DNA from: Anaerolineae bacterium
GTDB lineage: Bacteria > Chloroflexota > Anaerolineae > Fen-1058
Assembly: GCA_035292585.1 (NCBI GenBank)
Contig: DATDPU010000033.1
Coordinates: 9,691-73,690 of the forward strand
Length of the DNA stretch: 64,000 nt
Reading direction: 5' to 3'
The translations under genes and the position numbers were made by a program. The notes beneath the pieces are model-generated. The model was not told the origin of the DNA, searched no databases, and worked only from the letters and a program-made list of their open reading frames with translations. This document shows, one piece after another, positions 4,520 through 30,218 of this stretch. Every line of letters begins with the position of its first letter. The first letter of the stretch is position 1.

Positions 4520-6553
4520 TTACCGCATCGCGCGCAGCAACTTCGCCTTCAACGCCTCGCGCCGCTTGCGGTATTCGGCTTCGGGAAGATCGCGCGCTTC
4601 AAAGGCATCATCCAGCGCGGCGATTTGATCCAGCAGTTGCTCGCGCCCGGCCAGGGCCGTGCGGGCCTGCTTGCGCAGAGTCGAGCGCGGCGGCGGCGGT
4701 GTCTTGCGCGGCCGCGTGCGCCACACGCCGTAGCCGACCGCGGCCACGCCGACGACGAGCAACGCGATCCCGCCGACCAGCTTGGCGTCGATGCCGGCGT
4801 TGGCGCGCGCCAGTCTGAACGTCAGCGGCTGACCGGCCGGCAGCGCCTGCCCTGAGAAGATTTCATACGCCGCGCCTTCGAAGCTGCGCACGCCCTGATT
4901 CGTCAGCTGGTCGCTTGACGCTTGCAGGTCGCCGGCCTGCACGAGCAGGTTGATCGAGTTCATCGGGTAGGTCGGGATCCGGCTGAGCGACGCCTCGGCG
5001 TCGAGCGGCAGCTGGTAAGCGATGACGAACTGCGCCGCTTCGTCGCCGGGCAGCACCGCCTCGCGGTAATCGAACCCATCCGGCGTTTGCACAAACACGC
5101 CCGGCGTGTCGTTCATGTCCCGGAAAGCCGTCGCGCCGGCCGGGAGCGTGAAGTGCAGCGTCGCGCCGCTCGTGTTCGCCACCGTGCGATCGCCCAGGTT
5201 GCTCAACACGTAAATCTCGGTGACGTCGAGCGCGCCGCTGTTCTGCGCCGCGATCAGGTGCAGGGTCTTGATCCGGATCGCGTCGGTGGCCGTGGTCTGC
5301 GCGTAGACCGGGAGCGGTAGATCGAGTGTGTTGGACGTCTCATCCAGGGTGACCGCCTCGCTCCAGTAGGTTACATCTTGAGGCGTGACGTTGACCGCCA
5401 CCACATCGCCGGGTTGCGCTTTCAGATCGGGCGCCTGGAAACGTCCCTCGGCGTCGGTTTTCAGCGTCTGTGTGATGGGTGCGTGATCCAGGCCGCCGGG
5501 GAAGTGGTAAAACGTGACGTCGATATTGACCGGCGGCGGCGAACCGGCGGTGCCGCTGACCAACGACCCATTGATCGTGTAGGAGGCATCTCCCGATGCC
5601 GACCCATCTCCCGATGCCGACCCATCTCCCGATGCCGACGTGTCTGGCGGCGGGGTAGTGGCGTCGGAGCCGGGCGTGACCGGCGGCGGCTCGGCGACGA
5701 CCGCGCTCGTGTCATACGTGAAGCTGCGCAGGTAGTCGATCACGGCGCTGCGCTCGAAGCTGTTCAGCTTGCCGCTGAAGGACGGCACGTGCGTGCTTTG
5801 CAGCGCGTTATCCCACTCGCCCGGCGCGACATCGCGGTAGGCGTCCAGCGTGCTCAAGTCAGGTACGTTGCCTTCGGCCTGGGACCCATTGCCTGCGCCG
5901 GTTTCGCCGTGACATTGCACGCAGCGCTCGGCGTAGATCGCCTGCCCGGTTGTCAGTTTCGATTCGGGCGAGCCGAGCGACCAGACGTACGCCATCACGT
6001 CCCACCGATCGTCGACGACCAGCGATCCGCTGAAGGGCGGCATGCCGCGCTCGAGCCGGCCGGCCGTGATCACCCCGAACCACTCGGCGGGCGTCGAGGC
6101 GCGGGCGACGCTATCGGCGGTGAGATCCGCCGGGGCCGCGCCGAACTGGGCCAGGATATCGGCCGCTTTGTCGCCGTCGCCCGCGCCGCTCGCGCCGTGG
6201 CAGCTGACGCACTTCTCGGCGTAGAGCGCCGCGCCGTTGGCGACCGACGGCTTGCGCGCGGGCAACTCCAATGCGACGTCGGTTTGGGGCGGCAGCGGCG
6301 TAAGAATGGGGGCGTTGCCGCGCGAGGGCGGCGGGGCCGACAGCGCGCAGCCGGAAAGAATGAGGCTCAGTAGGAGGCATCTCCAGATGCCGACGAATCT
6401 CCAGATGCCGACGACGAGTCGTCGTCTGGAGACGACTCCTACGGTTCCCTCTCTTGATGGCCGAAGGTCTCCCGACCGAGGCCTGCCGCAGACCTGGGTT
6501 CTGCTCTTCGGCGCGGTCGGGAGACCCGCGCCGATCGACAGTAATCTCATCAT
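4520..6553 (-). CDS. membrane-anchored diheme c-type cytochrome with large beta-rich C-terminal region
   Basis: Two CxxCH motifs (CVSCHG, CVQCHG), an SASGDG x3 repeat linker, a about 300-aa domain, a C-terminal TM helix and a charged coiled tail. The start is uncertain: ATG at 6553 overlaps the upstream stop as ATGA, and the track ORF extends to 6628 through a tandem repeat. Confidence 0.6.
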   Translation of the reverse strand: MMRLLSIGAGLPTAPKSRTQVCGRPRSGDLRPSREGTVGVVSRRRLVVGIWRFVGIWRCLLLSLILSGCALSAPPPSRGNAPILTPLPPQTDVALELPARKPSVANGAALYAEKCVSCHGASGAGDGDKAADILAQFGAAPADLTADSVARASTPAEWFGVITAGRLERGMPPFSGSLVVDDRWDVMAYVWSLGSPESKLTTGQAIYAERCVQCHGETGAGNGSQAEGNVPDLSTLDAYRDVAPGEWDNALQSTHVPSFSGKLNSFERSAVIDYLRSFTYDTSAVVAEPPPVTPGSDATTPPPDTSASGDGSASGDGSASGDASYTINGSLVSGTAGSPPPVNIDVTFYHFPGGLDHAPITQTLKTDAEGRFQAPDLKAQPGDVVAVNVTPQDVTYWSEAVTLDETSNTLDLPLPVYAQTTATDAIRIKTLHLIAAQNSGALDVTEIYVLSNLGDRTVANTSGATLHFTLPAGATAFRDMNDTPGVFVQTPDGFDYREAVLPGDEAAQFVIAYQLPLDAEASLSRIPTYPMNSINLLVQAGDLQASSDQLTNQGVRSFEGAAYEIFSGQALPAGQPLTFRLARANAGIDAKLVGGIALLVVGVAAVGYGVWRTRPRKTPPPPRSTLRKQARTALAGREQLLDQIAALDDAFEARDLPEAEYRKRREALKAKLLRAMR
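5586..5641. repeat. 18-bp tandem repeat CATCTCCCGATGCCGACC x3 inside the cytochrome coding region
   Basis: Direct tandem repeat seen in the sequence, encoding SASGDG repeats on the minus strand. Same motif family as the repeats at 6374-6426 and 28817-28990. Confidence 0.8.
6374..6426. repeat. tandem repeat ATCTCCAGATGCCGACGA x2 plus 17-bp perfect palindrome GACGACGAGTCGTCGTC
   Basis: Seen directly in the sequence. It shares the 21-mer GAGGCATCTCCAGATGCCGAC with position 28817. Confidence 0.75.
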
Positions 6554-7074
6554 CGCGCTACCTGCGTTCCCAGGGGCGCACCACATTTGGAGCAGAATGC
6601 ATCGCCGGCCTGGCTCGGCTTGCCGCAATTGGGGCAGGCCAACGCTTGATGCGGAGCGGCGCTGATCCCTTCAGCAGGTTTTCGCTTGCGCCGTTCGGCG
6701 ATCGCGGCTTCGAGCTCGGCGTCGGCGGTAGCCGGCTTGCGCTTGCGCCGGGCGGCGATTGCGGCTTCGAGCGCATCTTCAGCGGCCGCCGGCGCGGGGC
6801 CGGCCAGCGCATCGATCTGGCGCAGCACGTCGGCTGCCTGGGCGACTAAGCGTGCGCGCAGGGAGTCATGATCGGCAGCGATGATCTTGCCGGTAGCGTG
6901 ATCGAAATCGAGTTCGCGGATTTGCGTGTACAGCGCCTCGCGCTGCGCGAACAGCGTATCCAGCTGCGATTCGGCGGCAGGCGTCGCCCGGCGCGCCTGG
7001 CGCAGCGGTTGGCCGATGAAGAAGATCAGACCGATCACCAGCGCCAGGCCGATGAGAAGTGCCAAGATGTCCAT
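6550..7074 (-). CDS. small membrane protein with C-terminal zinc-ribbon (CPNCG...CSKCG) and internal 17-aa tandem repeat
   Basis: N-terminal TM helix, a coiled region containing AAIAARRKRKPATADAELEAAIAERRKRKPA, and a C-terminal CxxC-x9-CxxC motif. The start abuts the ccmG stop and the stop overlaps the cytochrome start, so it is part of the ccm operon. Confidence 0.5.
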   Translation of the reverse strand: MDILALLIGLALVIGLIFFIGQPLRQARRATPAAESQLDTLFAQREALYTQIRELDFDHATGKIIAADHDSLRARLVAQAADVLRQIDALAGPAPAAAEDALEAAIAARRKRKPATADAELEAAIAERRKRKPAEGISAAPHQALACPNCGKPSQAGDAFCSKCGAPLGTQVAR

Positions 7075-7641
7075 TTATTGACCTGCAAGTAGTTTTTCAA
7101 ACTCGACGGCCAAAGCCTGCTGTTCGACCGGGCTGGGCTGGAAGAACACGATCTCGCCCTGTTGATCGACGATAAAAGTTTCCGGCACGCCGGTGATGTG
7201 ATACTTGGGACCGATCTTGGTCTCCAGGTCCGGGCCGTTAGCATAAGTGATGCCGAAGCGCTGGAGATAGGTCAGCGCGTCGGCATGGTTGTCCGTCCAG
7301 TCCACCCCGATGAACACGACGCCGCGATCTTTATACTCACGCCAGGCCGCTTCGAGATCGGGCGCTTCCTCTTCGCACGGCACGCACCACGAGGCCCAAA
7401 AGTTGATCAGCACGACCTTCCCGCGCAGCTCCGACAACGCAACGGGAGACTTGCCCAGCCCGCCGTCATAGCCGTCGAAGAGCGACAGCATGAAATCGGG
7501 GGCCGGGCCGCTCACCGGCTGCGTCCGGTTGCTCTCCGACAGCCCCCAGGCGATAAAGCCGACGAACGCGATGATCAACGCGAGCACCCCGAACGCGGCT
7601 TTGGGCGGTGAAGATGATATTTGACGTGCGTCGCTGTTCAT
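7075..7641 (-). CDS. ccmG: thiol:disulfide interchange protein CcmG/DsbE
   Basis: Single TM anchor, WCVPC active site and TlpA/DsbE fold. The start is moved to ATG 7641 (MNSDARQ) because the upstream part of the track ORF is translation of a heptamer repeat. Confidence 0.85.
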   Translation of the reverse strand: MNSDARQISSSPPKAAFGVLALIIAFVGFIAWGLSESNRTQPVSGPAPDFMLSLFDGYDGGLGKSPVALSELRGKVVLINFWASWCVPCEEEAPDLEAAWREYKDRGVVFIGVDWTDNHADALTYLQRFGITYANGPDLETKIGPKYHITGVPETFIVDQQGEIVFFQPSPVEQQALAVEFEKLLAGQ

Positions 7642-7651
7642 AGCCAATGCT

Positions 7652-7770
7652 GAATGTAGAATGTAGAATGTAGAATGTAGAATGTAGAATGTAGAATGTG
7701 GAATGTGGAATGTGGAATGTGGAAAAGCAGTCATTTCATCATTCGGCATTCTGCCTTCTACATTTCAGAG
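7652..7770. repeat. heptanucleotide tandem array (GAATGTA x6, GAATGTG x4) followed by a partial inverted copy
   Basis: Direct repeats seen in the sequence, in the ccmH-ccmG intergenic region. GCATTCTGCCTTCTACATTTC downstream is the inverted complement, giving hairpin potential. Confidence 0.8.
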
Positions 7771-8262
7771 TTGTTGTTTCAATTCGCGCTCGACCTGATC
7801 GACGTACTCGTCGCCGGTTGGGGCCGGGGCCACGGGTCGGGCCGGCGCTGCTGCGCCGCGCTGCGACATGCGCCGGATGATGCGGAACGCATAGAAGCCG
7901 CCGGCGAGGACGACCAGGATCGGGCCGATCCATACAATGGGGGCGACTTGGGCCGATGACTCGCTCAGCACGCGCTGCCCGTAACGCTGGACGAAGAGCT
8001 GCACGATCGCTTCGTCGCTCTTGCCTTCGGCCAGGTATTGCGCGATCTGCGCCTTCCATTGCACGCAGGCTGGTGTCTGGCAGACGTCGAGCGGCTCGTT
8101 CTCGCACACCGGGCAATACAACCTGGAGGCGACGCGATTCACGTCGTCGGGGGCGTTGGGTCGCGGCGGCGGCGTCCCGGCCTGAGCCGAGACCGAGGCC
8201 GCCACCACCAACCCAACCAACAAACTAACCACCACTCCAACCCGCAGACTGAGCTTTCTCAC
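7765..8262 (-). CDS. ccmH: cytochrome c-type biogenesis protein CcmH (NrfF-like)
   Basis: LYCPVCENEPLDVC motif with AEGKSDEAIVQLFVQRYGQRVL signature, a signal-like N-terminus and a C-terminal TM. The proposed GTG start at 8262 overlaps the ccmF stop (GTGA). Confidence 0.8.
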   Translation of the reverse strand: MRKLSLRVGVVVSLLVGLVVAASVSAQAGTPPPRPNAPDDVNRVASRLYCPVCENEPLDVCQTPACVQWKAQIAQYLAEGKSDEAIVQLFVQRYGQRVLSESSAQVAPIVWIGPILVVLAGGFYAFRIIRRMSQRGAAAPARPVAPAPTGDEYVDQVERELKQQL

Positions 8263-10322: not shown

Positions 10323-10344
10323 GAGACACTCCTCCCAAGAAGTC

Positions 10345-10435
10345 AGGACTTACGCAGTTGGCGCGGCAGTTGCACTGCCGCCGCCTCATCTGCCGCAGTA
10401 CAACTGCGGCAGCAACATGCAGCTGCGTAAGTCCT
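10345..10435. repeat. 91-bp MITE-like element with 16-bp terminal inverted repeats AGGACTTACGCAGTTG (copy A)
   Basis: Seen in the sequence. It is near-identical to 19335-19425 and is the inverted counterpart of 17266-17352. It lies in the ccmF-ccmE intergenic region. Confidence 0.8.
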
Positions 10436-10507
10436 GGAAGTGATACGTGCTGCATGGCTTCACGCGCCTGCGCTCACCCCGCGCGGGCGCCTGCGTCACG
10501 TATCACG

Positions 10508-10930: not shown

Positions 10931-11181
10931 AGCCCTCCTCATTTGCCCCGGCGCAGTTGTGGCAGACCTCAGGCCACAGGACATTTATACCTCGCGTACC
11001 TGGAAAGTGTCAATATAGGGTATCACCTATTTTAGCTGACTTTTGTCCGGTAGCTAACGGGAATCCAGGCGGGATCGATGCCGGAAAGCGGCTGAACCCG
11101 GCCAATACCGCCCGTTCGGCGCGCCTGCCGTGGTTAAAACAATGCCGTGGTGGCAGGCCGCCTGATTCTGGGAATTAGGTT

Positions 11182-11538
11182 CTATTCGTACTTCAGCGCT
11201 TGCATCGGGTTCAACGTCGCCGCGCGCAGCGCCGGACAGCCCCGACAGGACGCCGATGAACGCGGCGCCTGACCGGCCAGGAAGGCCAGCGCGATGACGT
11301 TGATGAGCTGGCCGGCCACCCAGTCCAACACCACGCCGCCGATCCCGCCGACCGACCCGATGCCGGCCGCCTCGCCCAGGAACACCGACAACACGTCACG
11401 GTTGGTCGCGCCGAGCGCCTTCGTCACCCCGATCTCGCGCGTGCGCTCCAGCACCGCTATCGCCATCGTGTTGGCGATGCCGATCGCCGCGACGAGCAGC
11501 GCGATCGCGCCCATCCCGCCGAAGATGACCTGCAACAC
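11182..11538 (-). pseudogene. C-terminal fragment of an FtsX-family (MacB/LolE-like) ABC permease
   Basis: Only the last about 115 aa of an FtsX domain are present (IANTMAIAVLERTREIGVTKALGA...). There is no upstream N-terminal or TM1 region, and the fragment begins exactly at the 33-bp palindromic element. Confidence 0.5.
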
Positions 11539-11540
11539 TC

Positions 11541-11573
11541 AGAAACCTGGTTTCTTAAAGAAACCAGGTTTCT
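11541..11573. repeat. 33-bp double-palindrome element AGAAACCTGGTTTCT-TAA-AGAAACCAGGTTTCT (copy 2)
   Basis: Seen in the sequence. It is translated in several spurious ORFs as KPGFFKKPGF. Confidence 0.8.
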
Positions 11574-11993
11574 CCGTGTTACCTTTCGGCCCGAACGGCT
11601 CGCCGGGATCGGGGCTGAGCACGGGCGTCGGGCGCACGCTATCGAGTCCGATCAGTCCGAGGAAGGCGCGCGCCAGCATATCGAAAAACGATTCCTCCGT
11701 CTGCGGCGGGCTGCCCTCACCGCCGGGTTGGTTCGGATCGATCGGCGGCTCGGGCTGCGGCAGCACTTCGATCTCGAGCGTGTCGCTGATCAGCTTCGAC
11801 TCGTTGAAGTCGTCCACGTAGTTGACGAGAATCGTCAACGTGAGCGGGCCGGGTTCGAGCGGCGGGGCTGGACTCAATGTGGTTTCAACAAGCGGTATCG
11901 GATGTCACTCAGGCTCAAACGAAAACGATCATAAGCGGAGAGAGGTTCCCCGTCAACTTGTGACGGACGGGTGGGGTTGCCCGGATGCATCCA

Positions 11994-13084: not shown

Positions 13085-13215
13085 TTTTAGAAGTTCAGGC
13101 AGCGGTTGTACGGCTGTCCATGCGCCGCCGCTGCACTGCGGCGCGAACCGACTGAAGTTCAGGCAGCAGTTGCACTGCTGCCCGGCTCCGCAGTGCAACT
13201 ACAGCGCGAACTTAC
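13085..13215. repeat. GC-rich hairpin repeat with direct duplication (GAAGTTCAGGCAGC...) and GCAGTTGCACTGC core
   Basis: Two about 45-bp direct repeats, each containing the GCAG(T/C)TG(C/T)ACTGC hairpin core shared with elements at 10345, 17266, 27718, 42496, 46335 and 49990. Confidence 0.6.
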
Positions 13216-13945: not shown

Positions 13946-14210
13946 GGTCTGCTCCTCACCTGCAGATAGGCAGATTATACGCCGGTACGCGGTAAACGCG
14001 CGTAGGAAACAGCGTGTGCACGGAAAACCTGTCAGACGGCAAGACCTGCGAGGTTTTGTTTAGAGCGCGTTACGGCGAAAGTGCCCGCATAAACCTCGCA
14101 GGTCTAATGAGCTGACAACGTTTGCGTGCGCAGGAAATAGCTGCGCGCTTGCCCGTCGATATGTTGTGCGCTACAATCGGCTCGCGCCACTGACGGCACA
14201 AGGAGCCAGC

Positions 14211-16312: not shown

Positions 16313-16463
16313 GTGGTAGGCGAATAAACGAATGCAAGAGTCGCATCGCGGCGACGATGACAAACGCATGTAGGAGTTGCCTCCCGGCGACGACGAACAA
16401 ACGGATGCAGAGGTCGCCGGGAGGCAACGCTGGATAGCTCATCGCACGACAGGAGGTCTTAAC

Positions 16464-17412: not shown

Positions 17413-17637
17413 ACTAGTACCCCGACCGCCTCATTCTGCGGGGTTCGGACGGCACAACCCTCTTCGCTGCGCTCGTGGGCAGGCCGCCGCCCTCTTTAGA
17501 AGGCAATGAAAGGCGGCGGCTGGCACTGCCGTCCGCCGCAGTGCTGGCCGCCGCCCTCTTATAAGAAGGCAGTGAAAGGCGGCGGTCATGCGGCAGGAAC
17601 TATGCAACTTCAAGTTGTCGAAGTACTAGCCTGAAAA
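17413..17637. repeat. GC-rich hairpin element family E, long copy with duplicated internal hairpin
   Basis: Shares the ACTAGTACCCCGACCGCCTCATTCTGCGGGGT...GGCGGCGGTCATGCGGCAGGAACTATGCAACTTCAAGTTGTCGAAGTACTA ends with 42496-42648. It contains two GGCCGCCGCCCTC...GAAAGGCGGCGGC hairpins. Confidence 0.75.
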
Positions 17638-19207: not shown

Positions 19208-19334
19208 GGCAAATCCACTACACGTGACCCATTGTTACCGAAAACACACGGCGACGCTCAAGTGAATGTCTGCTTGGCTCCGAATAGAGCCAAGCAGTTT
19301 CTTGTTTGAGATAACTGTTCTGTGTCTTTTGGAC

Positions 19335-19425
19335 AGGACTTACGCAGTTGGCGCGGCAGTTGCACTGCCGCCGCCTCAGCTGCCGCAGTACAACTGCGGC
19401 AGCAACATGCAGCTGCGTAAGTCCT
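19335..19425. repeat. 91-bp MITE-like element (copy B)
   Basis: One mismatch relative to copy A. It lies immediately 3' of the low-GC glycoside hydrolase gene. Confidence 0.8.
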
Positions 19426-19568
19426 GTTGGATTCTAGTTCTGGTCACAGTTTTTGTCCAACCGGTCGCCAATTGAGCCTTGCATCATTACTTGCATCTCC
19501 GCCCTAACCGGTTATACTACCTCCCGGCAACTTCGATTTTCCGTGCAACTCGATCCAGGAGACATGCA

Positions 19569-21864: not shown

Positions 21865-23184
21865 ATGGACACACTCATCCTGATCGGCCTGGCGGTGCTG
21901 GGCGCGGTGGCGTCAGCGGGGCTGGCGCTGATCCCGGCGTTGCACATCTACAACGTCGCCGGGCTGCTGATCCTCGTCGCCGGTTCGCTGTCATCTATCC
22001 TCAACCTCGATCAACTAGCGCTGCTGTTGCTCGGCATGGTCGTCGGCTACTCGATGCTGAACACGATCCCGGCGACATTCCTGGCCGCGCCGGACGAGTC
22101 GGCGGCGTTCATCGTGCTGCCCGCGCAGAAGTGGCTGCTGCAGCGGCGCGGTTACGAAGCGGTCGTCCTCACCGGCGTCGGCGGGTTAGGCGGGCTGGCG
22201 GTTGTCGTCGCGCTCAGCCCGTTTGCCGGCGAAGCCGCGCGCATCCTGCAAGCGATCGTCGCGCCGCACCTCGGCTGGATCCTGCTGGCCGTCAGCGCCT
22301 TCATGCTGATGTCGGAGTGGCCCAAAGCGGGCGAGCGCGGCCGGACGCGCATCGGGCGTTTCCTCGCCGCGTGGACCGGGTTGGGCGCCGGGATTCTCAC
22401 CTTCTTTTTGTCCGGCCTGCTCGGCTTCATCATCATCTATCGCAGCGTCGTGCCGACCGAGGTCGCGTTTCAGAATTTGCTGCCGGCGTTCCTCGGCTTG
22501 TTTGCCGTGCCCATGGTCCTGGCGAACTTCATCATGGGCACGCGCATTCCTGAGCAATACCTGTCCACCTCGCTCGACGTGTCTCCGTCCCACTTGCTGC
22601 GCGGCATCGCTTCGGGCACGCTAGGCGGGTTGTTCGCCGCGTTCTTCCCGGTGGTGACCGGCGGCGTCGGTGGGTTCCTCGCCGCGCATGCGACGGCGCA
22701 ACGCGACGACCGCACGTTCATTCTCTCGCAAGGCGCTTCGAAATCGGTGTACTACGTCGGCGGCTTTCTGTTGTTCTTCGTGCCGGGCCTGCACCTGGCG
22801 CGCGGCGGCATGGCGGCGATGCTCAGCACGATTTACACGCCGGCGACGCCGTTGCTGTACTTTACCGCCGTGGCGGCCATCGCGGTGAGCGGGGCGGTTT
22901 CGTTCTTGCTGTTGATCGCGTTGAGCCGCCTGGCGATCCGCGTGGTCGAGCGCGTTCATTACCGCGTGATTAACGCCGCGACGCTGGCGATCCTGGTCAC
23001 GCTGGTGGCTGCGCTGACTGGTCCCGGCGGGTTGCTGATCATGCTGGCCGCAACGGGCATCGGCCTGATCCCGACGCTGTTCGGCTCGCGGCGCATGAAC
23101 TGCCTGGGGGTGTTGCTGCTCCCGATCACACTCAACCTGCTGGGACTGGGGCCGTCGGTGGCAAGGCTGCTGGGACTGATCTGA
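21865..23184 (+). CDS. polytopic membrane protein, possibly TctA/DUF112-family transporter subunit (tentative)
   Basis: About 12 predicted TM helices and Gly-rich helices. The family call is weak and is pattern resemblance only. Confidence 0.4.
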   Translation: MDTLILIGLAVLGAVASAGLALIPALHIYNVAGLLILVAGSLSSILNLDQLALLLLGMVVGYSMLNTIPATFLAAPDESAAFIVLPAQKWLLQRRGYEAVVLTGVGGLGGLAVVVALSPFAGEAARILQAIVAPHLGWILLAVSAFMLMSEWPKAGERGRTRIGRFLAAWTGLGAGILTFFLSGLLGFIIIYRSVVPTEVAFQNLLPAFLGLFAVPMVLANFIMGTRIPEQYLSTSLDVSPSHLLRGIASGTLGGLFAAFFPVVTGGVGGFLAAHATAQRDDRTFILSQGASKSVYYVGGFLLFFVPGLHLARGGMAAMLSTIYTPATPLLYFTAVAAIAVSGAVSFLLLIALSRLAIRVVERVHYRVINAATLAILVTLVAALTGPGGLLIMLAATGIGLIPTLFGSRRMNCLGVLLLPITLNLLGLGPSVARLLGLI

Positions 23185-23249
23185 ATGTAGAATGAAGAAT
23201 GAGGAATGAGGAATGAAGAATGAGGAATGAGGAATGCAGAATGCAGAAA
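23183..23249. repeat. heptamer tandem array GAATGNA x9, upstream of the four-helix-bundle gene
   Basis: Seen in the sequence. It has the same GAATGTA unit as the array at 7652. Confidence 0.8.
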
Positions 23250-23630: not shown

Positions 23631-23633
23631 TTT

Positions 23634-23685
23634 TCTTCATTCTCAATTCTTCATTCTCAATTCTTAATTCTACATTCTGCATTGA
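23634..23685. repeat. inverted heptamer array (reverse complement of GAATGAA/GAATTGA units) downstream of the four-helix-bundle gene
   Basis: The reverse complement reads GAATGTA GAATTAA GAATTGA GAATGAA GAATTGA GAATGAA. It forms a long inverted repeat with 23183-23249 across the gene. Confidence 0.8.
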
Positions 23686-23686
23686 T

Positions 23687-24682
23687 ATGAAGGGCATCAC
23701 GCATTTCGTCAGCGGCATCGCCGCCGCCACTTTCATTCCGGGCGTGGTCGAACAGGCCGCGGCCGGGTCACTGCTGCCGGTGCTGGGCGGCGTGTTCGGC
23801 CTGTTGCCCGACACGCTCGATTTCAAGTTCGCGCGCTACTTCGAACGCGCCGAGCAGATCGACCCGGACCCGCGTCACCCCGACCCGCAACTGATCGCCG
23901 ACCGGCTGGCCGAGGCGATCGATCGGGCCTACAAGCGCAATCAGCCCGTCCGCGTGCGGCTGCACACGATGAAGCTGGGCGTCGATCTATGGCGGCAGTA
24001 TACCGTCCGCTTCGACGCCGAGAACGGCGAGATCGCCGTGCGCATCGGGCCGACGGTGAACACCTCGCAGCTGGCGTATGCCGGTTCGGAAATCGAAGGA
24101 CTGAAGGAGGCGCGCGCGAAAGTCGAAGCGCCGTTGGTGTATACCTATGGCGAGGAGATGAAGATCGATATCTTCGGCGGGCCGTCGTTCGCCTTCAAGC
24201 GCGTCAAGGACAAGGTCGAGATTCAATTTCTGCCATGGCATCGATCGTGGTCGCACTCGCTCGTGTTGGCGGCGTTCCTCGGGCTGGCGACCGGGCTGCT
24301 GCTCAATGCCACACTCGGCTGGGTGATCTTCGCCGGCATGGCCGTGCACATTCTCGAAGATCAGCTCGGCTACATGGGCAGCAACCTGTTTTGGCCGCTC
24401 ACCGAGAATCGGGCCGGCGGGCTGCGGTTGATTCACTCCGGCGACCCGATCCCCAATTTCGTCACGGTCTGGACGGCGCTGGTACTGATCCTCTTCAACC
24501 TCGATCGGTTTTCAGGCGAGCCGCCGTTCTTCCAGCCGGTAGTCTTTTTGACCTTTGCCCTGGCTGTGCCTGTCGGCGGGCTGTTGTCGTTCTACTTCAT
24601 GGGCAAGCGGCGCGGCTACCAAACGATCGAGGCGGCGAAACAGGCGGACGTGATCCAGGAGCTCGTAGAGACGGAGGTATAG
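23687..24682 (+). CDS. membrane protein, possible DUF457-like membrane-bound metal-dependent hydrolase (tentative)
   Basis: N-terminal MKGITHFVSG and a His-rich C-terminal TM region (HSLVLAA...HILEDQLGYMGSNLFWPL). Weak resemblance only. Confidence 0.35.
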   Translation: MKGITHFVSGIAAATFIPGVVEQAAAGSLLPVLGGVFGLLPDTLDFKFARYFERAEQIDPDPRHPDPQLIADRLAEAIDRAYKRNQPVRVRLHTMKLGVDLWRQYTVRFDAENGEIAVRIGPTVNTSQLAYAGSEIEGLKEARAKVEAPLVYTYGEEMKIDIFGGPSFAFKRVKDKVEIQFLPWHRSWSHSLVLAAFLGLATGLLLNATLGWVIFAGMAVHILEDQLGYMGSNLFWPLTENRAGGLRLIHSGDPIPNFVTVWTALVLILFNLDRFSGEPPFFQPVVFLTFALAVPVGGLLSFYFMGKRRGYQTIEAAKQADVIQELVETEV

Positions 24683-24785
24683 CGGTCAACGGACTTGCCA
24701 ACGGACAACCCTCGCGCGCAGCGCGGGGGTTGTCCGCTTAAGAGTCCGTTGACGGCTCTATCCGCTTTTCTGGAGAAGGCAACGC

Positions 24786-25283: not shown

Positions 25284-25313
25284 CTACAGCGCCAGAGAGG
25301 AGGGGGATGCGGA

Positions 25314-25727
25314 ATGCAAGCCGAACGCGTTCTGGAAACCTGTCTGTACGTGGACGATCTGCAGGCGGCGGCGGAGTTTTACACCCGCGTCCTCGGACTG
25401 TCGCTGCTCTCGCGTGTCGAAGGGCGACACGTCTTCTTCCGCTGCGGCGCGGGCGTCTTCCTGCTGTTCAACCCCGCCACGACGATTCAGCCGAACAACA
25501 GCAGCCGCGGCGTGCCGACGCACGGCGCGCACGGGCCGGGCCACGCCGCGTTCGCCATGCCGCACGCCGAGATTGCGAACTGGCGCGAGCATTTGCTGCA
25601 AAACGGCGTGGCGATCGAAAAGGAAATCAATTGGCCGGGCGGCGGCTACTCGCTTTACTTCCGCGACCCGGCGGGCAACAGTCTCGAACTGGCAACCCCG
25701 AAAACCTGGGGGCTGGCGAGTGACTGA
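25314..25727 (+). CDS. VOC/glyoxalase-bleomycin resistance family protein
   Basis: 137 aa, with a YTRVLGL N-terminal and a paired beta-alpha-beta-beta-beta module pattern. C-terminal GNSLEL. Confidence 0.7.
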   Translation: MQAERVLETCLYVDDLQAAAEFYTRVLGLSLLSRVEGRHVFFRCGAGVFLLFNPATTIQPNNSSRGVPTHGAHGPGHAAFAMPHAEIANWREHLLQNGVAIEKEINWPGGGYSLYFRDPAGNSLELATPKTWGLASD

Positions 25728-25741
25728 TTACTGCTCACTCG

Positions 25742-27652
25742 TCACTGTATCCAGCCCAACCCCAGCTCCTCCAGCTTCGCCTGCGTCGGCATACCGGTGG
25801 TCTTGTCCCAACCGGCCAGCTCGTAATACGTGTTCAGTGCGAAATCGAGTTCTTCCGGCGTGACGGTTCGGCCGTCGCTGCGACCGCCCTTGAGCGGCCG
25901 GGACAACACCTTCTTGGGCAGCGTATCCTTGTCGCGGCCGACGCCCTCGCGCGCGTTGAAAGCGCGCAGCAGGTTCAAGCGCCGCTCGCCGACGGTCTGA
26001 ATCTCGTCGATCGTCACGTCCCAGCCGGTGACGGCCTTCATCAGCGCCACTTCTTGTTCAGGGCCAAACAACGTCCAGGCCGGCCCCCACACGAACTGGC
26101 ACAGCGTGGCCGTGTCCAGGAACGAATAGTTCAGCTGCGTGCGGTAAGCAAACCTCACCTTCTCCTCGTTCATCACGCGGCCCTTCTGCGGGTTCGTCAG
26201 GCCGAGCACCTTCAAGCGGCGCAGGTACAGGTTGTCGTTGTGGTTCTCCGGATCGGGCGCGTACATCGGATCGTGCTCGGATGATTGATGATCGGCGCCG
26301 AAGGGGTTGACCGCGTAGATCAGCGCCAGGCTCTTCTTGACCTGCGGCATGTGCGCCGGCAGCTCCGCGCCTTTGACCGTGATCAAAAACTCTTCGGCGC
26401 CGCGTCCGATCTTTTGCGCGGCAGCTTCCGACCCCTCCGCCAGCACCGCGCCAAAACCCTCCCGACGGACAATCTGGTTGAGCATGGCGATCATCGCGTC
26501 GGCATTGCCGAACCTCAGCTCGATCCCGCCCGTGTCCTCTGTCGTAATCACGCCGTTCTCGAACAACTCCATCCCGAACGCGATCGTCGCGCCGCAGGCG
26601 ATGGTATCCACCCCCCACTCGGAGCAAATCTGGTGCGCCAGCGAGATCGCCAGGAGATCGTTGACGCCGCAATACGAACCGAACGTGCTGATCGTCTCGT
26701 ACTCCGCGCCGCCGTAGGACGGCAGAATCGTCGTATCCTTGTACTTGGTCTCGACGACGCGCTTGCAGCGCACCGTGCAGGCGAAGCAGGTGTCGTTCTT
26801 CTTCAGGATCGTGTCAGCCATCTTCTCGCCGCTGATGTCGTCGCTGTATTCGAAAAAGCCGCTGTTGTAGTTGAACGCCGGGAAAGTGCCGGTCGAGTTT
26901 TGGAAGCCGACGACGCTGGCCGTGCCGTAATCTTGCAAGCCCTTCACGTCGGCGTTATCGGGAATTTCCTTGGTGCCGCTCCGATTCATCTCGGCGATCG
27001 TCTGCTTGTCGAACACTTCGGGTTTCTTCGTGCCGCGCACCGCGATCGCCTTGAGGTTCTTCGACGCCATCACCAGCCCCAGCCCGGTGCGGCCGAACGC
27101 GCGGTTGCTCATATTCATGATCGCCGCGAAGCGCACGCCATGTTCCGCCGCCGGGCCGACCTGGATGACCTCGGCCTTCGACTCACCCACCTCTGCCTTG
27201 ATCGTCTGCTCCACAGCGCCGGTGGTCAGGTCTTTACCCCACAGGTGACTCGCCGCGCGCAGCTCCGGCTGGCCGTCGTTGATCCACACGTACACCGGCT
27301 TGGGCGACTTGCCGGTGATCACGATGCCATCGAACCCGGCGAACTTCAACTCGGCCGGCCAGAACCCGCCCGATTGCGCATCGCCTGCCAGCCCGGTCAG
27401 CGGGCTTTTAGCCGTGGCCGTCGCCCGGCTCTGCCCGGAGATCGCCACGCCGGTCGGCGCGCTGATGAAAAACGAGAGGGTGTTGTCGGGGCCGAGCGGA
27501 TCGGCTTGGGGCGGCGTGTGCTTCAACAGATAGTACAGCCCCATCGCGCTGCCGCCGTAATAAGTTCGGTAAAACGCTGCATCCGGTTTCTCGATCGTCA
27601 ATGCGCCCTGTGTTAGATCGATGTGCAGAATCTGCCCGGTGTAACCGTACAT
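25742..27652 (-). CDS. tungsten-containing aldehyde:ferredoxin oxidoreductase (AOR family)
   Basis: 636 aa, with an MYGYTGQILHIDLT N-terminus and conserved AOR N- and C-domain motifs (GLGAVMGSKNLKAI-type, Cys ligands for 4Fe-4S). Confidence 0.85.
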   Translation of the reverse strand: MYGYTGQILHIDLTQGALTIEKPDAAFYRTYYGGSAMGLYYLLKHTPPQADPLGPDNTLSFFISAPTGVAISGQSRATATAKSPLTGLAGDAQSGGFWPAELKFAGFDGIVITGKSPKPVYVWINDGQPELRAASHLWGKDLTTGAVEQTIKAEVGESKAEVIQVGPAAEHGVRFAAIMNMSNRAFGRTGLGLVMASKNLKAIAVRGTKKPEVFDKQTIAEMNRSGTKEIPDNADVKGLQDYGTASVVGFQNSTGTFPAFNYNSGFFEYSDDISGEKMADTILKKNDTCFACTVRCKRVVETKYKDTTILPSYGGAEYETISTFGSYCGVNDLLAISLAHQICSEWGVDTIACGATIAFGMELFENGVITTEDTGGIELRFGNADAMIAMLNQIVRREGFGAVLAEGSEAAAQKIGRGAEEFLITVKGAELPAHMPQVKKSLALIYAVNPFGADHQSSEHDPMYAPDPENHNDNLYLRRLKVLGLTNPQKGRVMNEEKVRFAYRTQLNYSFLDTATLCQFVWGPAWTLFGPEQEVALMKAVTGWDVTIDEIQTVGERRLNLLRAFNAREGVGRDKDTLPKKVLSRPLKGGRSDGRTVTPEELDFALNTYYELAGWDKTTGMPTQAKLEELGLGWIQ

Positions 27653-27717
27653 ACTTCCTCCCTACGACAAAGTTGAGCGCTTGCAGTGCGGCGAGTGCTT
27701 CGACAATCTAAAGTTGC

Positions 27718-27790
27718 CTAGTTCCCGCCGCAGTTGCACTGCCGTCCGAACCCCGCATAATTAAGTGGTCGGGGTACTAATAATCAGTCC
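27718..27790. repeat. truncated inverted copy of the GC-rich hairpin element family E
   Basis: Contains CGCAGTTGCACTGCCGTCC and the reverse complement of the ACTAGTACCCCGACC end. Confidence 0.6.
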
Positions 27791-27878
27791 ATGTGAAATT
27801 GATGGGCCGTAGCATAGCCCCTGGTGGGCGTTGGACGGGCACAAGGCCCTAGGCTACCCATCAAAATCAAGTGGACTG
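27785..27878 (-). promoter_or_regulatory. structured leader candidate upstream of the AOR gene (nested inverted repeats)
   Basis: CAGTCCATGTGAAATTGATGGGC pairs with ACCCATCAAAATCAAGTGGACTG around a GC-rich core with a second imperfect inverted pair. It lies in the 5' region of the minus-strand AOR gene. Confidence 0.3.
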
Positions 27879-27920
27879 ACCACTAGTATAGATCGAAGCG
27901 TGAAGCAGGTAAAGACAGTC

Positions 27921-27986
27921 GAGTTAGAGTAAGCAGTTAGAGTGAGAGTCTCTAACTCCAAACTCTAACTCTAAACTCCAACTCAC
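27921..27986. repeat. hairpin-forming heptamer array (AGTTAGAG units facing CTCTAACT units)
   Basis: Seen in the sequence, between the ABC-2 permease stop and the AOR upstream region. Confidence 0.7.
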
Positions 27987-28805
27987 ACTTCCTCAGCGAA
28001 CCGTCTCGCATACCGATCGAACACCGCGTACCCGATCACCAGCATCGCCAGCGCCGTGATCGCCGTGCGCAGGAAGAAGTCCGCGCCGATGGTGTGCCCC
28101 CAGTACAACACATCGCGATACGAGGAAATGATCGAGGCCATCGGGTTGACGATGTACACCAGCCGGCGCAGGTCGAACGCAGCGCCGAGCAGGGTCGCCG
28201 TTTGCGGCACAGTCTCGATCGGGTACACGATCGGCGTGAGGAAGAACCACGCCAGCATCACGACTTCCATGATGATCTGGGTATCGCGATAGAACACGTT
28301 GACGGTAGACAAGATCAGCCCGATGCCGACGGTGAAGATCACCTGCACCAGCAAAACCACCGGCAGCCAGATGATCAGCCACACTTGCCCGGTGAGCGGC
28401 ACACCCGATAGCCAGGCCAGCGCGAAGAAGACCGGCAGCGCGATCATGAAGTTGATCATGTTCGCGATCACCACGGCGACCGGCAGGGCCGCGCGCGGGA
28501 AGTACACTTTCTTGATCAGATGCGCGTTGTTGACGATGCTGCCCGTCGCGCCGATGACCGAGGCCGAGAAGAAGTTCCAGGCCAGGATGCCGATCAACAC
28601 CGAGACGTGATAGGCGGGCTGGCGGTTCTGCGCCGCCATCACCGTGAACACGATCGTCAACACCAACATCATCAGCAGCGGGTTAAGCCAGGACCAGGCG
28701 ATGCCCAAAGCCGAATTCTTATAGCGCACCTTCAGGTCGCGCTCGACCAGGTTGCGAATCAGCTCGCGGTAACTCCACAGCTCGCGCAGCCTAGCCCACA
28801 TCATG
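27983..28805 (-). CDS. ABC-2 type polysaccharide/teichoic-acid exporter permease (Wzm/TagG/KpsM-like)
   Basis: Start MMWARLRELWSYRELIRNLVERDLKVRYKNSALG is the canonical ABC-2 N-terminus, followed by 6 TM helices. The track ORF upstream of 28805 is translation of the 15-bp repeat. No ATPase gene is adjacent. Confidence 0.8.
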
Positions 28806-30218
28806 CCCCCTCGTAGGAGGCATCTCCAGATGCCGACCCTCCGGATGCCGACCCTCCGGATGCCGACCCTCCAGATGCCGATCCTCCAGATGCCGACCCT
28901 CCGGATGCCAACCCTCCAGATGCCGACCCTCCGGATGCCGACTCTCCAGATGCCGACTCTCCAGGTGCCGACTCTCCAGATGCCGACCGAACCCAAGTTC
29001 CTGCAGCGCCTGCGTGCGCTCGCCGGCGCGGCGCAGGCGCACGGCGTCATACACGGCCACGATGCGGCGAGCGGCATCCTCCCACGCGAACATCGCCTGG
29101 GCGCGCGCCCGCAAGCCGGCCGCGGCGCACGCGCGCGCCGACGGAGTGTTCAAGGCGTACAGCAGTTGCTCCGCCAGCGCAGCCGCATCACCCGGTCGCG
29201 CGTAAAAACCGTAATCGTGCAGATATTCGCGATTGATAGGCGTATTGAACGCGATCGTGGGCAGTCCGGTTGCCATATAGTTCAAGACCTTGCCGTTCGC
29301 CTCGGTGGCCGACAGCTTGGGCGCCACGGCCACGTCGCCCAGCCGCAGGTAGCGCGGCGCGTCTTCGTACAACACGCGACCGACGAACGTAGTGTGCGCG
29401 CTCAGACCGCGCGCTTCCGCCAGCGCTCGATACAGCGGCATGCCGGGGTAACCCATGATTAGAAAGTGCGTGTTGGGGCGCTGCCGGATCACTTGCTCGG
29501 CCGCTTCGATCAACAGGTCCGTCCCCTGGTACGGCGCGAGCAGGCCCAGGTACACCACCAGCTCGCGGTCAGCCGGCACGCCCAGATACGAGCGGATCGC
29601 GCTCAATTCGATACGGTCGGCTTCGGTGCGCGGGCGGAAGAAAGCCGTGTCCACGCAATCGGGCAACGGGATCACCCGTTCCGGATCGACGCCGAACGTG
29701 TCGCGCAGCAGAGCAACCGCTGTGCGCGAGCTGGTCAGGATCGCGCGCGGCCGATGATCGATGCGGCGCTCCAGCCGGCGCACGATCGCGTGAGCCGGGC
29801 CGGCCGGGTTCAGGAAGTGATGATCGATCATTTCGCCGGTCAGGCTGCCTTGAAAATCGAACACGAGCGGCGCGCGACTGATCCAGCTAAGCGCCGAACC
29901 GATGAGCGCGCCTTCGTGCAGGTGCGCGTGAATGATGTGCGGCTTGAAACGCAGCGCCGTCTTGAGCGCGGTCCAGGACAACAATACATCGAAGGCGATC
30001 TTATGCCGCGAGGAGCCGACTTCGTAGTCGGCGTGCCACGGCGTCGGCGCGGTGCGGATGATTTCCAGATCGGGCAGGCTCCGGCCTTTGTAATAGGTCA
30101 CGATCTGCACGCGCTGGCCGTGCGCTTGCAAGGTGCGCGCTTCTTCAAGAATTCGAACGTGGCACCCGTAGTCGGAAAAGAACGACGTGGGCGCGATCAT
30201 GAGGATCCGGTAGGGCAT
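28791..30218 (-). CDS. glycosyltransferase family 4 (GT-B, group 1)
   Basis: Start MPYRILMIAPTSFF (ATG 30218). GT4 pattern with a C-terminal EX7E-like region. The last about 60 codons of the ORF are the 15-bp tandem repeat, so the true C-terminus is uncertain. Confidence 0.75.
   Translation of the reverse strand: MPYRILMIAPTSFFSDYGCHVRILEEARTLQAHGQRVQIVTYYKGRSLPDLEIIRTAPTPWHADYEVGSSRHKIAFDVLLSWTALKTALRFKPHIIHAHLHEGALIGSALSWISRAPLVFDFQGSLTGEMIDHHFLNPAGPAHAIVRRLERRIDHRPRAILTSSRTAVALLRDTFGVDPERVIPLPDCVDTAFFRPRTEADRIELSAIRSYLGVPADRELVVYLGLLAPYQGTDLLIEAAEQVIRQRPNTHFLIMGYPGMPLYRALAEARGLSAHTTFVGRVLYEDAPRYLRLGDVAVAPKLSATEANGKVLNYMATGLPTIAFNTPINREYLHDYGFYARPGDAAALAEQLLYALNTPSARACAAAGLRARAQAMFAWEDAARRIVAVYDAVRLRRAGERTQALQELGFGRHLESRHLESRHLESRHPEGRHLEGWHPEGRHLEDRHLEGRHPEGRHPEGRHLEMPPTRGHDVG
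28817..28990. repeat. 15-bp tandem repeat (ATGCCGACCCTCCAG-type, about 11 copies)
   Basis: Seen in the sequence. It is translatable in frame on both strands: RHLES/RHPEG repeats at the C-terminus of the GT4 ORF, and VGIWR repeats upstream of the permease. Confidence 0.85.

What the first reader, a model, noticed from the sequence alone, without database searches (positions are those of the whole stretch)
5586..28990. GGCATCTCCAGATGCC-type hairpin repeat family present at three loci, once inside a coding region
An 18-bp unit CATCTCCCGATGCCGACC x3 lies inside the cytochrome gene at 5586-5641, where it encodes the SASGDG repeats. A near-identical unit ATCTCCAGATGCCGACGA x2 plus a 17-bp perfect palindrome lies just upstream of that gene at 6374-6426. 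A 15-bp derivative repeated about 11 times fills the junction between the GT4 glycosyltransferase and the ABC-2 permease at 28817-28990. The 21-mer GAGGCATCTCCAGATGCCGAC is identical at 6377 and 28817. Because each unit length is a multiple of 3, the arrays read through in several frames and create artefactual ORF extensions (VGIWR and RHLES repeats). The same self-complementary motif (CATCT-CC-AGATG) occurring in coding and intergenic contexts suggests an expanding repeat or a protein-recognition element.
Basis: seen in the sequence. Interest (0 to 1): 0.6.

Follow-up and report, generated by a model that had tools for sequence, protein, structure and literature searches.

The report
REP elements with in-frame tandem arrays
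The repeats are copies of a REP element, a small hairpin-forming mobile DNA already known from many bacteria; here parts of it have been re-duplicated into short arrays that are read as extra amino acids in three proteins, so it is a known kind of element in a little-studied host group.

Summary
All three loci share a 25-nt unit, GTAGGA-GGCATC-TCC(A/C)-GATGCC-GAC. It consists of a GTAG head, a GA spacer, a 6-bp stem, a TCCN loop, the return stem and a GAC tail. This is the architecture of GTAG-tagged REP elements (compare Xanthomonas GTAGGAGCGCGCTTGCGCGCGATG). Two further copies in the window have other stems that still pair. The same 22-mer is multi-copy in MAGs labelled as about seven phyla. 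In two of those MAGs it directly flanks a gene that scores as REP-associated tyrosine transposase (RAYT). At each window locus only the tail side of one complete REP has been reiterated head-to-tail: 15 bp x11, 18 bp x3 and 18 bp x2. Only the terminal copy is a full hairpin. The arrays lie in translated sequence. One forms the cytochrome linker (SASGDG). One forms a 55-residue C-terminal tail on the GT4 protein, which is real and not an artefact. One probably lies in the cytochrome signal-peptide leader. One 18-bp unit is the only difference in 12.5 kb between two assemblies of this strain. Orthologous sites in related species hold REPs in other states or none. No RAYT gene lies in the window. 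Verdict: a new member of a known kind, of modest interest.

The parts
5579..5603 (+). Complete REP (GTAGGA-GGCATC-TCCC-GATGCC-GAC) inside the cytochrome c gene
   Evidence: Structured scan; sequence read.
5587..5639 (+). 18-bp x2.9 array of tail-side partial REP units. On the - strand it encodes SASGDG SASGDG SASGDASY in the cytochrome linker.
   Evidence: for the array; absent from all homologues at 61% identity or less; 2 units instead of 3 in the 99%-identical P0001; this indel is the only difference in 12.5 kb.
6370..6394 (+). Complete REP (GTAGGA-GGCATC-TCCA-GATGCC-GAC), next to the codons for the lipoprotein signal peptide of the cytochrome
   Evidence: The identical 22-mer sits at the same site in another species (L003/L022).
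6379..6414 (+). 18-bp x2 array of tail-side partial REP units (VGIWRF VGIWRC in the cytochrome frame)
6418..6442 (-). Inverted REP with a changed stem (GTAGGA-GTCGTC-TCCA-GACGAC-GAC). Together with 6370-6394 it forms a dimer with the GTAG ends outside.
   Evidence: I6; the 81-nt region folds as DNA at -21.6 kcal/mol, z = -4.1.
6451..6541 (.). Inverted pair of REP-body-like sequences without a GTAG head (GGTCTCCCGACCG / CGGTCGGGAGACC), in the same leader region
   Evidence: I4. The same body with a GTAGGA head occurs in other genomes. Its membership in the family is inferred.
16370..16394 (+). REP copy with a third stem (GTAGGA-GTTGCC-TCCC-GGCGAC-GAC, one T.G pair). A headless inverted partner lies at 16413-16428.
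   Evidence: (I22).: -21.5 kcal/mol, z = -5.2.
28813..28837 (+). Complete REP (GTAGGA-GGCATC-TCCA-GATGCC-GAC), lying 8 nt from the ABC-2 permease start codon on the coding strand
28824..28988 (+). 15-bp x11 array of tail-side partial REP units. On the - strand it is translated as the (G)RHLE(S/G) x11 C-terminal tail of the GT4 glycosyltransferase.
   Evidence: typical homologues are 418-420 aa against 475 aa here..
4520..6553 (-). Dihaem cytochrome c lipoprotein gene carrying REP material at two places (leader and inter-domain linker)
28791..30218 (-). GT4 glycosyltransferase gene. Its last 60 or so codons are REP-derived, and its stop lies 11 nt inside the ABC-2 gene.
27983..28804 (-). ABC-2 (Wzm-type) permease gene, with its true start at MMWARL just downstream of the REP
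   Evidence: the profile aligns from residue 3; 272-aa gene call.

Best explanation
The motif is a REP (repetitive extragenic palindrome) of the GTAG-tagged superfamily. Its layout is that of the GTAG-1/-2 families: GTAG, an unpaired GA, a 6-bp stem, a TCCN loop, the return stem and a conserved GAC/GAT tail.

Such elements are non-autonomous. The strand carrying GTAG folds as single-stranded DNA. It is bound, cut and rejoined by a single-copy HUH/Y1 enzyme, the REP-associated tyrosine transposase (RAYT), which spreads and maintains copies in a genome.

At three insertion sites in this window, the tail-side part of one complete REP (loop, 3' stem arm and tail) was duplicated head-to-tail, independently and with different boundaries. 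The most likely cause is replication slippage at the hairpin. The results are arrays of 15 or 18 bp.

All three sites lie in translated sequence, so only arrays whose unit is a multiple of three and whose frame is tolerated have survived. The tolerated products are a Ser/Ala/Gly linker, a C-terminal tail, and a signal-peptide leader that is cleaved off. Array length still changes between otherwise identical genomes.

Shown here: the architecture, the stem covariation, multi-genome multi-copy distribution, RAYT adjacency in other genomes, translation through the arrays, one copy-number polymorphism, and variable states at orthologous sites.

Inferred: that a RAYT acts in this genome, that slippage made the arrays, and that selection filtered the frames.
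For: Architecture: five copies in 64 kb fit GTAGGA-N6-TCCN-N6'-GAC, with three different stems that all pair.

Covariation: across the window and the fetched loci, all 87 occurrences of GTAGGA-N6-TC[CT]N-N6-GAN have at least 5 of 6 stem pairs, although pairing was not a search criterion; 80 are perfect. On 16 distinct sequences, 95.8% of cells are paired. 24 cells are changed on both sides, a value reached by 0 of 500 shuffles. Slid registers give 28-46% paired.

Literature: GTAG-1/-2 REPs have a dinucleotide between GTAG and the stem and a 3-bp motif on the other side. REPs occur inside ORFs, at ORF N-termini and reiterated in tandem (PMC3733652). The X. campestris REP is GTAGGAGCGCGCTTGCGCGCGATG (PMC4690160).

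Distribution: 53 of 85 loci returned by the genome scan carry the family form, in MAGs labelled Anaerolineae, Dehalococcoidales, Acidobacteriota, Zixibacteria, Gemmatimonadota, Planctomycetia, Stahlbacteria and Halomonas.

RAYT link: in L071 and L077 the GGCATC REP lies 24-50 nt upstream of a gene that scores as NCBIfam NF047646, REP-associated tyrosine transposase (108.6 and 80.5 bits; cutoff 80). Inverted REPs lie downstream of the same genes.

Arrays and coding.

Polymorphism: 0 mismatches and one 18-bp indel in 12,553 bp.
Against: No RAYT gene lies in the 64-kb window, and the rest of this genome could not be searched. RAYT activity here and a genome-wide high copy number are therefore extrapolated.

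The 4-nt TCCN loop differs from the TT/TY loops typical of described GTAG-1 REPs.

An identical 22-mer in several phyla is unusual for REPs, which are mostly lineage-specific.

Slippage is not demonstrated. The array units begin at CT dinucleotides, which is also compatible with RAYT cutting and rejoining.

A single isolated REP hairpin is not more stable than shuffled sequence (z = -0.9 to -1.6).
Confidence: 0.8

Rival explanations
1. The hairpin is mainly a cis-acting RNA element. It would control translation initiation or mRNA stability of the gene just downstream. For example, its CCUCC head could pair with the Shine-Dalgarno sequence and AUG of the ABC-2 permease.
For: The complete REP ends 8 nt from the ABC-2 start codon, and another lies at the 5' end of the cytochrome coding region. 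REPs occupy the same two sites in other species. In the RNA fold of the junction, GAUGCCUCC pairs with GAGGGGGCAU, which covers the SD and AUG; the whole array folds at -107 kcal/mol, z = -3.3. Published work assigns RNA-level roles to some REPs (PMC3733652).
Against: Copies occur in both orientations relative to transcription, and also inside a linker far from any start codon. The predicted SD pairing is not conserved in the orthologous junctions L093 and L094, judged by reading. Non-Watson-Crick stem pairs show no strand bias: 3 G.T against 3 A.C. No Rfam family matches. The RAYT association explains the conserved unpaired GTAGGA. This reading could still hold as a secondary effect of a REP.
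Confidence: 0.12
2. The repeats are kept for what they encode: a functional SASGDG linker, a pentapeptide tail on GT4, and a signal-peptide segment. On this view the DNA similarity is a by-product of protein-level selection.
For: All arrays have unit lengths that are multiples of three and are read through. Intragenic copies in other Anaerolineae repeatedly use the frame SASGDASY.
Against: The same DNA is read in three different frames at the three loci (SASG.., VGIWR.., GRHLE..). It also occurs in both orientations and in non-coding DNA. Homologues of both proteins lack the insert or carry it in other frames and states. The precomputed Pfam domains of the GT4 protein are glycosyltransferase domains only.
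Confidence: 0.04
3. These are ordinary minisatellites that arose by chance slippage and are unrelated to any mobile element, or they are an assembly artefact.
For: Tandem structure; one copy-number difference between assemblies.
Against: A 25-nt head shared by three loci, compensatory stems, hundreds of related copies in other genomes and RAYT adjacency are not expected from local slippage alone. Three assemblies agree base for base on the 11-unit array. The 54-bp array is shorter than the k = 141 named in the ENA contig.
Confidence: 0.02

Closest known systems
GTAG-1/-2 REP families (Pseudomonas, Xanthomonas, Thauera; Di Nocera et al. 2013, PMC3733652)
   Same: GTAG head, an unpaired dinucleotide (GA), a short perfect stem of 5-6 bp, and a conserved 3-nt tail (GAT/GAA/GAC). 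Sub-families differ by complementary stem changes. Dimers occur with GTAG outside or inside. Copies are reiterated in tandem and occur inside ORFs and at ORF N-termini. In Thauera, arrays flank exopolysaccharide genes and clusters encode 43-82 residues. X. campestris GTAGGAGCGCGCTTGCGCGCGATG (PMC4690160) aligns position for position.
   Different: The loop is TCCN (4 nt) with a conserved TC/GA closing pair, rather than TT/TY. The host is an Anaerolineae (Chloroflexota) MAG. The arrays consist of partial units (half REPs) rather than whole REPs or dimers.
REPIN-RAYT systems (Bertels and Rainey 2011, PMC3116915; bioRxiv 10.1101/2021.07.10.451892)
   Same: Two inverted REPs form a longer hairpin (6370-6442 and 16370-16428). 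The RAYT is a single-copy gene flanked by REPs (seen in L071 and L077). Copies persist at orthologous positions across related species.
   Different: Two of the three loci are singletons with arrays, not doublets. A RAYT has not been seen for this genome. The same REP core occurs in several phyla, whereas REPIN populations are described as lineage-specific and vertically inherited.
E. coli REP/BIME and TnpA-REP (RayT) (PMC3479197, PMC8266576)
   Same: GTAG plus a hairpin as the recognition unit of a Y1 HUH enzyme that cuts at CT dinucleotides beside the REP. E. coli RayT detects the L071 protein at E = 8.8e-12.
   Different: E. coli REPs are longer, with a bulged stem and no GA spacer. They are extragenic.
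Rickettsia palindromic elements (RPE) and other intragenic REPs
   Same: Palindromic repeats inserted in frame into protein-coding genes and translated, and tolerated in surface loops or termini (discussed in PMC3733652).
   Different: RPEs are 100-150 bp or CGTC-type and have no known dedicated transposase. Tandem reiteration into pentapeptide or hexapeptide arrays is not their hallmark.

Membership tests
GTAG-tagged REP superfamily | Unpaired GTAG tetranucleotide at one end of a short palindrome | tested here: met
   GTAGGA directly precedes the stem in all five window copies and in all 16 distinct family sequences.
GTAG-tagged REP superfamily | Stem-loop of 20-40 bp whose stem is kept by complementary changes among copies | tested here: met
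   80 of 87 copies are perfect and 87 of 87 have at least 5 of 6 pairs, without selecting for pairing. 24 cells are changed on both sides, reached by 0 of 500 shuffles; 95.8% paired against 28-46% in slid registers.
GTAG-1/-2 REP families | Dinucleotide between GTAG and the stem, and a conserved 3-bp motif on the other side | tested here: met
   GA spacer is invariant. Tails are GAT 54, GAA 16, GAC 15. The feature is taken from PMC3733652.
GTAG-1/-2 REP families | Loop and stem sequence of a described family (Figure 1 of PMC3733652) | not testable with these tools
   The figure is not held. The text says most loops fit TY or CMA; the TCCN loop here does not fit TY, which suggests a family of its own.
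REP (general) | High copy number dispersed over the genome (usually more than 100) | tested here: inconclusive
   Five complete copies in 64 kb. The rest of this genome was not available.
REP/RAYT (REPtron) | A RAYT gene flanked by the cognate REPs | tested here: inconclusive
   Met for the family in other genomes: L071 (Dehalococcoidales; NF047646 at 108.6 bits) and L077 (Zixibacteria; 80.5 bits), with the GGCATC REP upstream and inverted REPs downstream. No RAYT lies in this window, and its genome could not be searched.
REP/RAYT (REPtron) | The RAYT binds and cleaves the single-stranded REP | not testable with these tools
   Needs biochemistry.
REPIN | Two REPs in inverted orientation with a short spacer, folding into one long hairpin | tested here: met
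   Met at 6370-6442 (23-nt spacer; z = -4.1) and at 16370-16428 (z = -5.2). The copies at 5579 and 28813 are singletons.
CRISPR array | Direct repeats separated by unique spacers of similar length | tested here: not met
   Units are head-to-tail with no spacers.
Phase-variable contingency repeat | A unit length that shifts the reading frame when copy number changes | tested here: not met
   Units are 15 and 18 bp. The observed 18-bp indel keeps the frame.
Intrinsic terminator / described RNA family | GC-rich hairpin followed by a T run, or a match to an Rfam model | tested here: not met
   0 terminator-like sites at either region. 0 Rfam matches at gathering threshold in the whole window.
Pentapeptide-repeat proteins | A(D/N)LXX repeats recognised by the Pfam pentapeptide models | tested here: not met
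   The precomputed Pfam list for the identical GT4 protein P0050 contains only glycosyltransferase domains. The tail reads RHLEG/RHPEG.

The most novel reading that the evidence does not exclude
The half-REP arrays might be made by the RAYT itself rather than by passive slippage. Cutting at the CT in the loop and at a CT 3' of the tail, followed by strand transfer, would give exactly the 15-nt unit CCAGATGCCGACCCT. The REP/RAYT system would then be a generator of in-frame peptide repeats in proteins. Separately, one REP core is shared by RAYT loci that are only about 30% identical and sit in several phyla. This could mark a REPtron lineage that moves horizontally, contrary to the usual picture of strictly vertical REPIN-RAYT inheritance.
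Probability: 0.15. Interest if true: 0.55.

Novelty: new member of a known kind. Interest (0 to 1): 0.3.

Why it matters
It explains several annotation oddities in this and related Anaerolineae genomes. These include spurious N-terminal ORF extensions, a GT4 protein about 55 residues longer than its typical relatives, and a hexapeptide repeat in a cytochrome. All trace to one cause, a REP family.

It extends GTAG-type REPs and their RAYT association to uncultivated Chloroflexota and, by MAG labels, to several other phyla.

It gives a clear example of mobile-element DNA becoming protein sequence and remaining length-polymorphic. It does not reveal a new kind of system.

Tried and rejected
- **Described RNA or tRNA:** Rfam found nothing at gathering threshold in the whole window. 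No tRNA or tmRNA was found.
- **Terminator or promoter:** none at either locus.
- **CRISPR:** rejected because there are no spacers.
- **Link to the pentapeptide-repeat gene at ~63.5 kb:** it also has 15-bp periodicity, but the spacing between the similar words differs by one base and the frame does not fit.
- **RAYT in the window:** phmmer with E. coli RayT, and an HMM built from four RAYTs, found none in the window, L001 or L090.
- **Metagenome scan for two adjacent 15-bp units:** only two loci were returned, both from other species. The JGI contig known to carry the 11-unit array was not among them, so this scan gave no copy-number series for the GT4 array.
- **Exact look-up of the 3-unit cytochrome protein:** not on record.
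- **DNA for P0005 and P0052:** unavailable, so their REP content is inferred from the protein sequences.
- **Strand bias of wobble pairs,** which would favour an RNA or single-strand reading: none, 3 against 3.
- **Part of the genome-scan hits:** about 20 of the 32 non-family hits appear to be coding matches in short-chain dehydrogenase genes. I judged this from the conserved flanking coding sequence; it was not tested. All 32 were set aside.

Full report

Yes. Tandem Repeats Finder reports three arrays:
- 18 bp x2.9 at 5587-5639, 100% matches
- 18 bp x2.0 at 6379-6414, 100% matches
- 15 bp x11.0 at 28824-28988, 90% matches

The 14-mer CTCCAGATGCCGAC, allowing two mismatches, occurs 18 times against 0.73 expected by chance. 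The 17-bp palindrome is at 6410-6426.

Two independent metagenome assemblies are 100% identical to the window over 21.9 kb and 17.0 kb, including the 11-unit array. They are ENA ERZ27254861 contig k141_3321696 and a contig of JGI sample 3300002124. The array is therefore not an assembly artefact.

One small correction: the shared 21-mer begins at 6374, not 6377.

**2. Anatomy**

All genes at the three loci are on the - strand. On the + strand each locus begins with the same 25-nt unit, GTAGGA-GGCATC-TCC(A/C)-GATGCC-GAC, at 5579, 6370 and 28813.

A structured scan finds two more copies of the same format with other stems:
- GTAGGA-GTCGTC-TCCA-GACGAC-GAC, inverted, at 6442-6418
- GTAGGA-GTTGCC-TCCC-GGCGAC-GAC at 16370

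The invariant parts are the GTAGGA head, the TCCN loop and the GAC tail. The stem varies but stays complementary.

The arrays are not strings of hairpins. In each one, only the copy next to the GTAGGA head is complete. The other units repeat the loop, the 3' arm and the tail, plus 1-4 nt of the 5' arm. The unit boundaries differ at the three loci, so the arrays arose independently.

The pair 6370-6394 / 6418-6442 is an inverted dimer with GTAG outside. It folds into one long hairpin as single-stranded DNA (-21.6 kcal/mol, z = -4.1). The pair at 16370-16428 folds at z = -5.2. A single REP on its own is not unusually stable (z about -1).

**3. Relatives elsewhere**

I scanned one genome per GTDB species for GGCATCNNNNGATGCCTCCTAC.

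Thirty-two loci were not family members. About 20 of them appear to be coding matches in short-chain dehydrogenase genes, judged from their conserved flanking coding sequence.

Fifty-three loci have the family form, (A/G)TC-GGCATC-NGGA-GATGCC-TCCTAC. They come from MAGs labelled Anaerolineae (three MAGs), Dehalococcoidales, Acidobacteriota, Zixibacteria, Gemmatimonadota, Planctomycetia, Stahlbacteria and Halomonas. One Acidobacteriota MAG has hits on at least 12 contigs.

The same loci hold bystander copies with other stems, such as GGGTTC, GAGGTC, GGTCTC, GCGATC and GGCGAC, but with the same head, loop and tail.

Pairing was not a search criterion, yet all 87 occurrences of the frame GTAGGA-N6-TC[CT]N-N6-GAN have at least 5 of 6 pairs, and 80 are perfect. 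On 16 distinct sequences:
- 95.8% of cells pair, against 28-46% in slid registers
- 24 cells are changed on both sides, a value reached by 0 of 500 shuffles

**4. What it is**

The format is that of GTAG-tagged REP elements. Di Nocera et al. (PMC3733652) describe two relevant families, GTAG-1 and GTAG-2. These carry a dinucleotide between GTAG and the stem-loop and a conserved 3-bp motif at the other side. The same paper reports:
- sub-families that differ by complementary stem changes
- inverted dimers
- tandem reiteration
- copies inside ORFs and at ORF N-termini
- in Thauera, short-stem copies found through a tandem-repeat database, flanking exopolysaccharide genes and encoding 43-82 residues

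The X. campestris REP GTAGGAGCGCGCTTGCGCGCGATG (PMC4690160) aligns with the present unit position for position, except for the loop.

The defining association with a REP-associated tyrosine transposase (RAYT) holds for this motif in other genomes. phmmer with E. coli RayT against all ORFs of the fetched loci found three homologues.
- In L071 (Dehalococcoidales), GTAGGAGGCATCTCCTGATGCCGAT ends 24 nt before the ATG of a 173-aa protein. That protein scores 108.6 bits on NCBIfam NF047646, REP-associated tyrosine transposase (cutoff 80). REP dimers lie on both sides of the gene.
- In L077 (Zixibacteria), the GGCATC REP lies upstream and an inverted GGGGTC REP downstream of a RAYT scoring 80.5 bits.

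These two RAYTs are only 30% identical. For loci chosen only by the motif, three RAYT genes among about 53 loci of 8 kb or less is far more than a single-copy gene would give by chance. I expect about 0.1, assuming roughly one RAYT gene per 4-Mb genome. This is my estimate, not a tool result.

No RAYT lies in the window itself, and the rest of this genome could not be searched. That part of the membership test stays open for this organism.

**5. Coding consequences**

*(a) Cytochrome linker.* The 18-bp array is read as SASGDG SASGDG SASGDASY. Every homologue at 61% identity or less lacks it. The 99%-identical protein from the ENA contig has two units instead of three. At the DNA level, that contig and the window differ by this one 18-bp indel and by no substitution over 12,553 bp.

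*(b) GT4 tail.* The GT4 frame has no stop before the array, so the 11 units are translated as (G)RHLE(S/G) x11 followed by MPPTRGHDVG. The stop lies 11 nt inside the ABC-2 gene. The identical 475-aa protein is held by NCBI, JGI and ENA sources; typical homologues are 418-420 aa. The orthologous junction exists in several states:
- L095 has no REP.
- L093 and L094 have one REP with one or two partial units.
- Other homologues end in REP-derived residues in other frames, for example SASGVSASGDASY and GRRLELPPTRG.

*(c) Cytochrome leader.* In the window and in another species (L003), the only in-frame ATG, GTG or TTG upstream of the lipobox cysteine overlaps the stop of the upstream gene (ATGA). 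It lies 67 codons before the cysteine, and the frame stays open through the REPs. The identical 22-mer sits at the same place in L003 and L022 although the proteins are 58% identical. A third homologue begins MTPSLNDVGVVSRRRPFGIWGC..., which reads as a translated REP dimer. I infer that the REPs are translated as part of a long signal-peptide n-region that is later removed. A non-canonical start nearer the lipobox cannot be excluded.

*(d) ABC-2 permease.* The VGIWR extension upstream of this gene is spurious. The Wzm profile aligns from MMWARL.

Intragenic copies in other Anaerolineae use the same mild frame, SASGDASY. They occur in a glycogen-debranching-like ORF (my reading of the ORF translation, not confirmed by a family search), in a UvrD-like helicase, and in one other ORF.

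All three window arrays have unit lengths that are multiples of three. Arrays with 14-, 28- and 29-bp units occur in other loci whose context I did not examine. This is weak support for selection on reading frame.

**6. Mechanism**

*Best supported:* a REP family that RAYT enzymes recognise as single-stranded hairpins carrying a GTAG guide. In published in-vitro work these enzymes cut at CT or CA dinucleotides beside the REP (PMC8266576).

*Inferred:* the arrays arose by slippage at the hairpin and were filtered by reading-frame constraints.

*Alternative origin:* RAYT cutting at the CT in the loop and at a CT after the tail, then rejoining, would give exactly a 15-nt unit. The sequence cannot distinguish the two routes.

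*Possible secondary RNA-level effect:* pairing of the CCUCC head with the ABC-2 SD and AUG is predicted. It is not conserved in the orthologous junctions, as read. There is no strand bias in wobble pairs, no Rfam match and no terminator.

**7. Novelty and verdict**

This is a new member of a known kind. The points of mild interest are:
- the host group, uncultivated Anaerolineae
- the TCCN loop
- one REP core shared by several phyla and by RAYT loci only 30% identical
- the reiteration of half REPs into translated pentapeptide and hexapeptide arrays that are still length-polymorphic

Interest: 0.3.

Noticed in passing
window 10344-10436 and 19334-19426: A 93-bp element that is 98.9% identical at two intergenic sites. 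It has terminal inverted repeats CAGGACTTACGCAG...CTGCGTAAGTCCTG and internal GCAGTTGCACTGC-type hairpins, so it looks like a MITE. Related hairpins lie at 13155-13213 and 17512-17555.
   Followed up: partly
window 7652-7724, 23183-23248, 23633-23683, 30238-30359, 44565-44600: AT-rich heptamer or tetramer tandem arrays (GAATGTA x10, GAATGAR x9, TTCTTCA x7, GGTAGTT/CCTGCTA, CAAC x9) in intergenic DNA of a GC-rich genome. One creates a spurious N-terminal extension of the thioredoxin-like gene at 7075-7749. Similar heptamer arrays lie next to REPs in MAGs of other phyla (L031, L034, L045, L088 and Acidobacteriota bin_258).
   Followed up: no
window 6451-6541: Inverted pair GGTCTCCCGACCG / CGGTCGGGAGACC, separated by 35 nt, in the cytochrome leader. 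The sequence is the body of a REP variant seen with a GTAGGA head in other genomes, but here it has no head.
   Followed up: partly
window 4476-4508 and 11534-11580: Near-perfect palindromes AGAAACCNGGTTTCTT / AAGAAACCNGGTTTCT after genes. They may be another small repeat family or terminator-like hairpins.
   Followed up: no
window 36351-36390; L003 5020-5140: CCCCCTCCCTCTCCCGA / TCGGGAGAGGGAGGGGG hairpins. The same type fills the cytochrome leader in L003.
   Followed up: no
L091 (reverse strand 1680-1770), L092 245-290, L020 (reverse strand ~2835): REPs of this family lie inside long ORFs in other Anaerolineae: a glycogen-debranching-like ORF (my reading of the translation), an uncharacterised ORF, and a UvrD-like helicase. 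All are read in the frame SASG(G/D)ASY. The L091 cluster also has a head-side array, GTAGGAGGCGACTTT x2.9.
   Followed up: partly
L071 2380-3070; L077 1960-2540: REPtrons, meaning a RAYT gene flanked by REPs, in a Dehalococcoidales MAG and a Zixibacteria MAG. The L077 RAYT appears frameshifted near its C-terminus, and the L053 copy is truncated by a repeat.
   Followed up: partly
window ~63400-63806: Pentapeptide-repeat protein gene (A(N/D)LXX) with 15-bp periodicity. It is superficially similar to the REP unit but unrelated.
   Followed up: partly
window 24667-24771, 14015-14132, 27775-27888: Long imperfect inverted repeats with arms of 32-51 nt, 74-78% complementary, in intergenic DNA.
   Followed up: no
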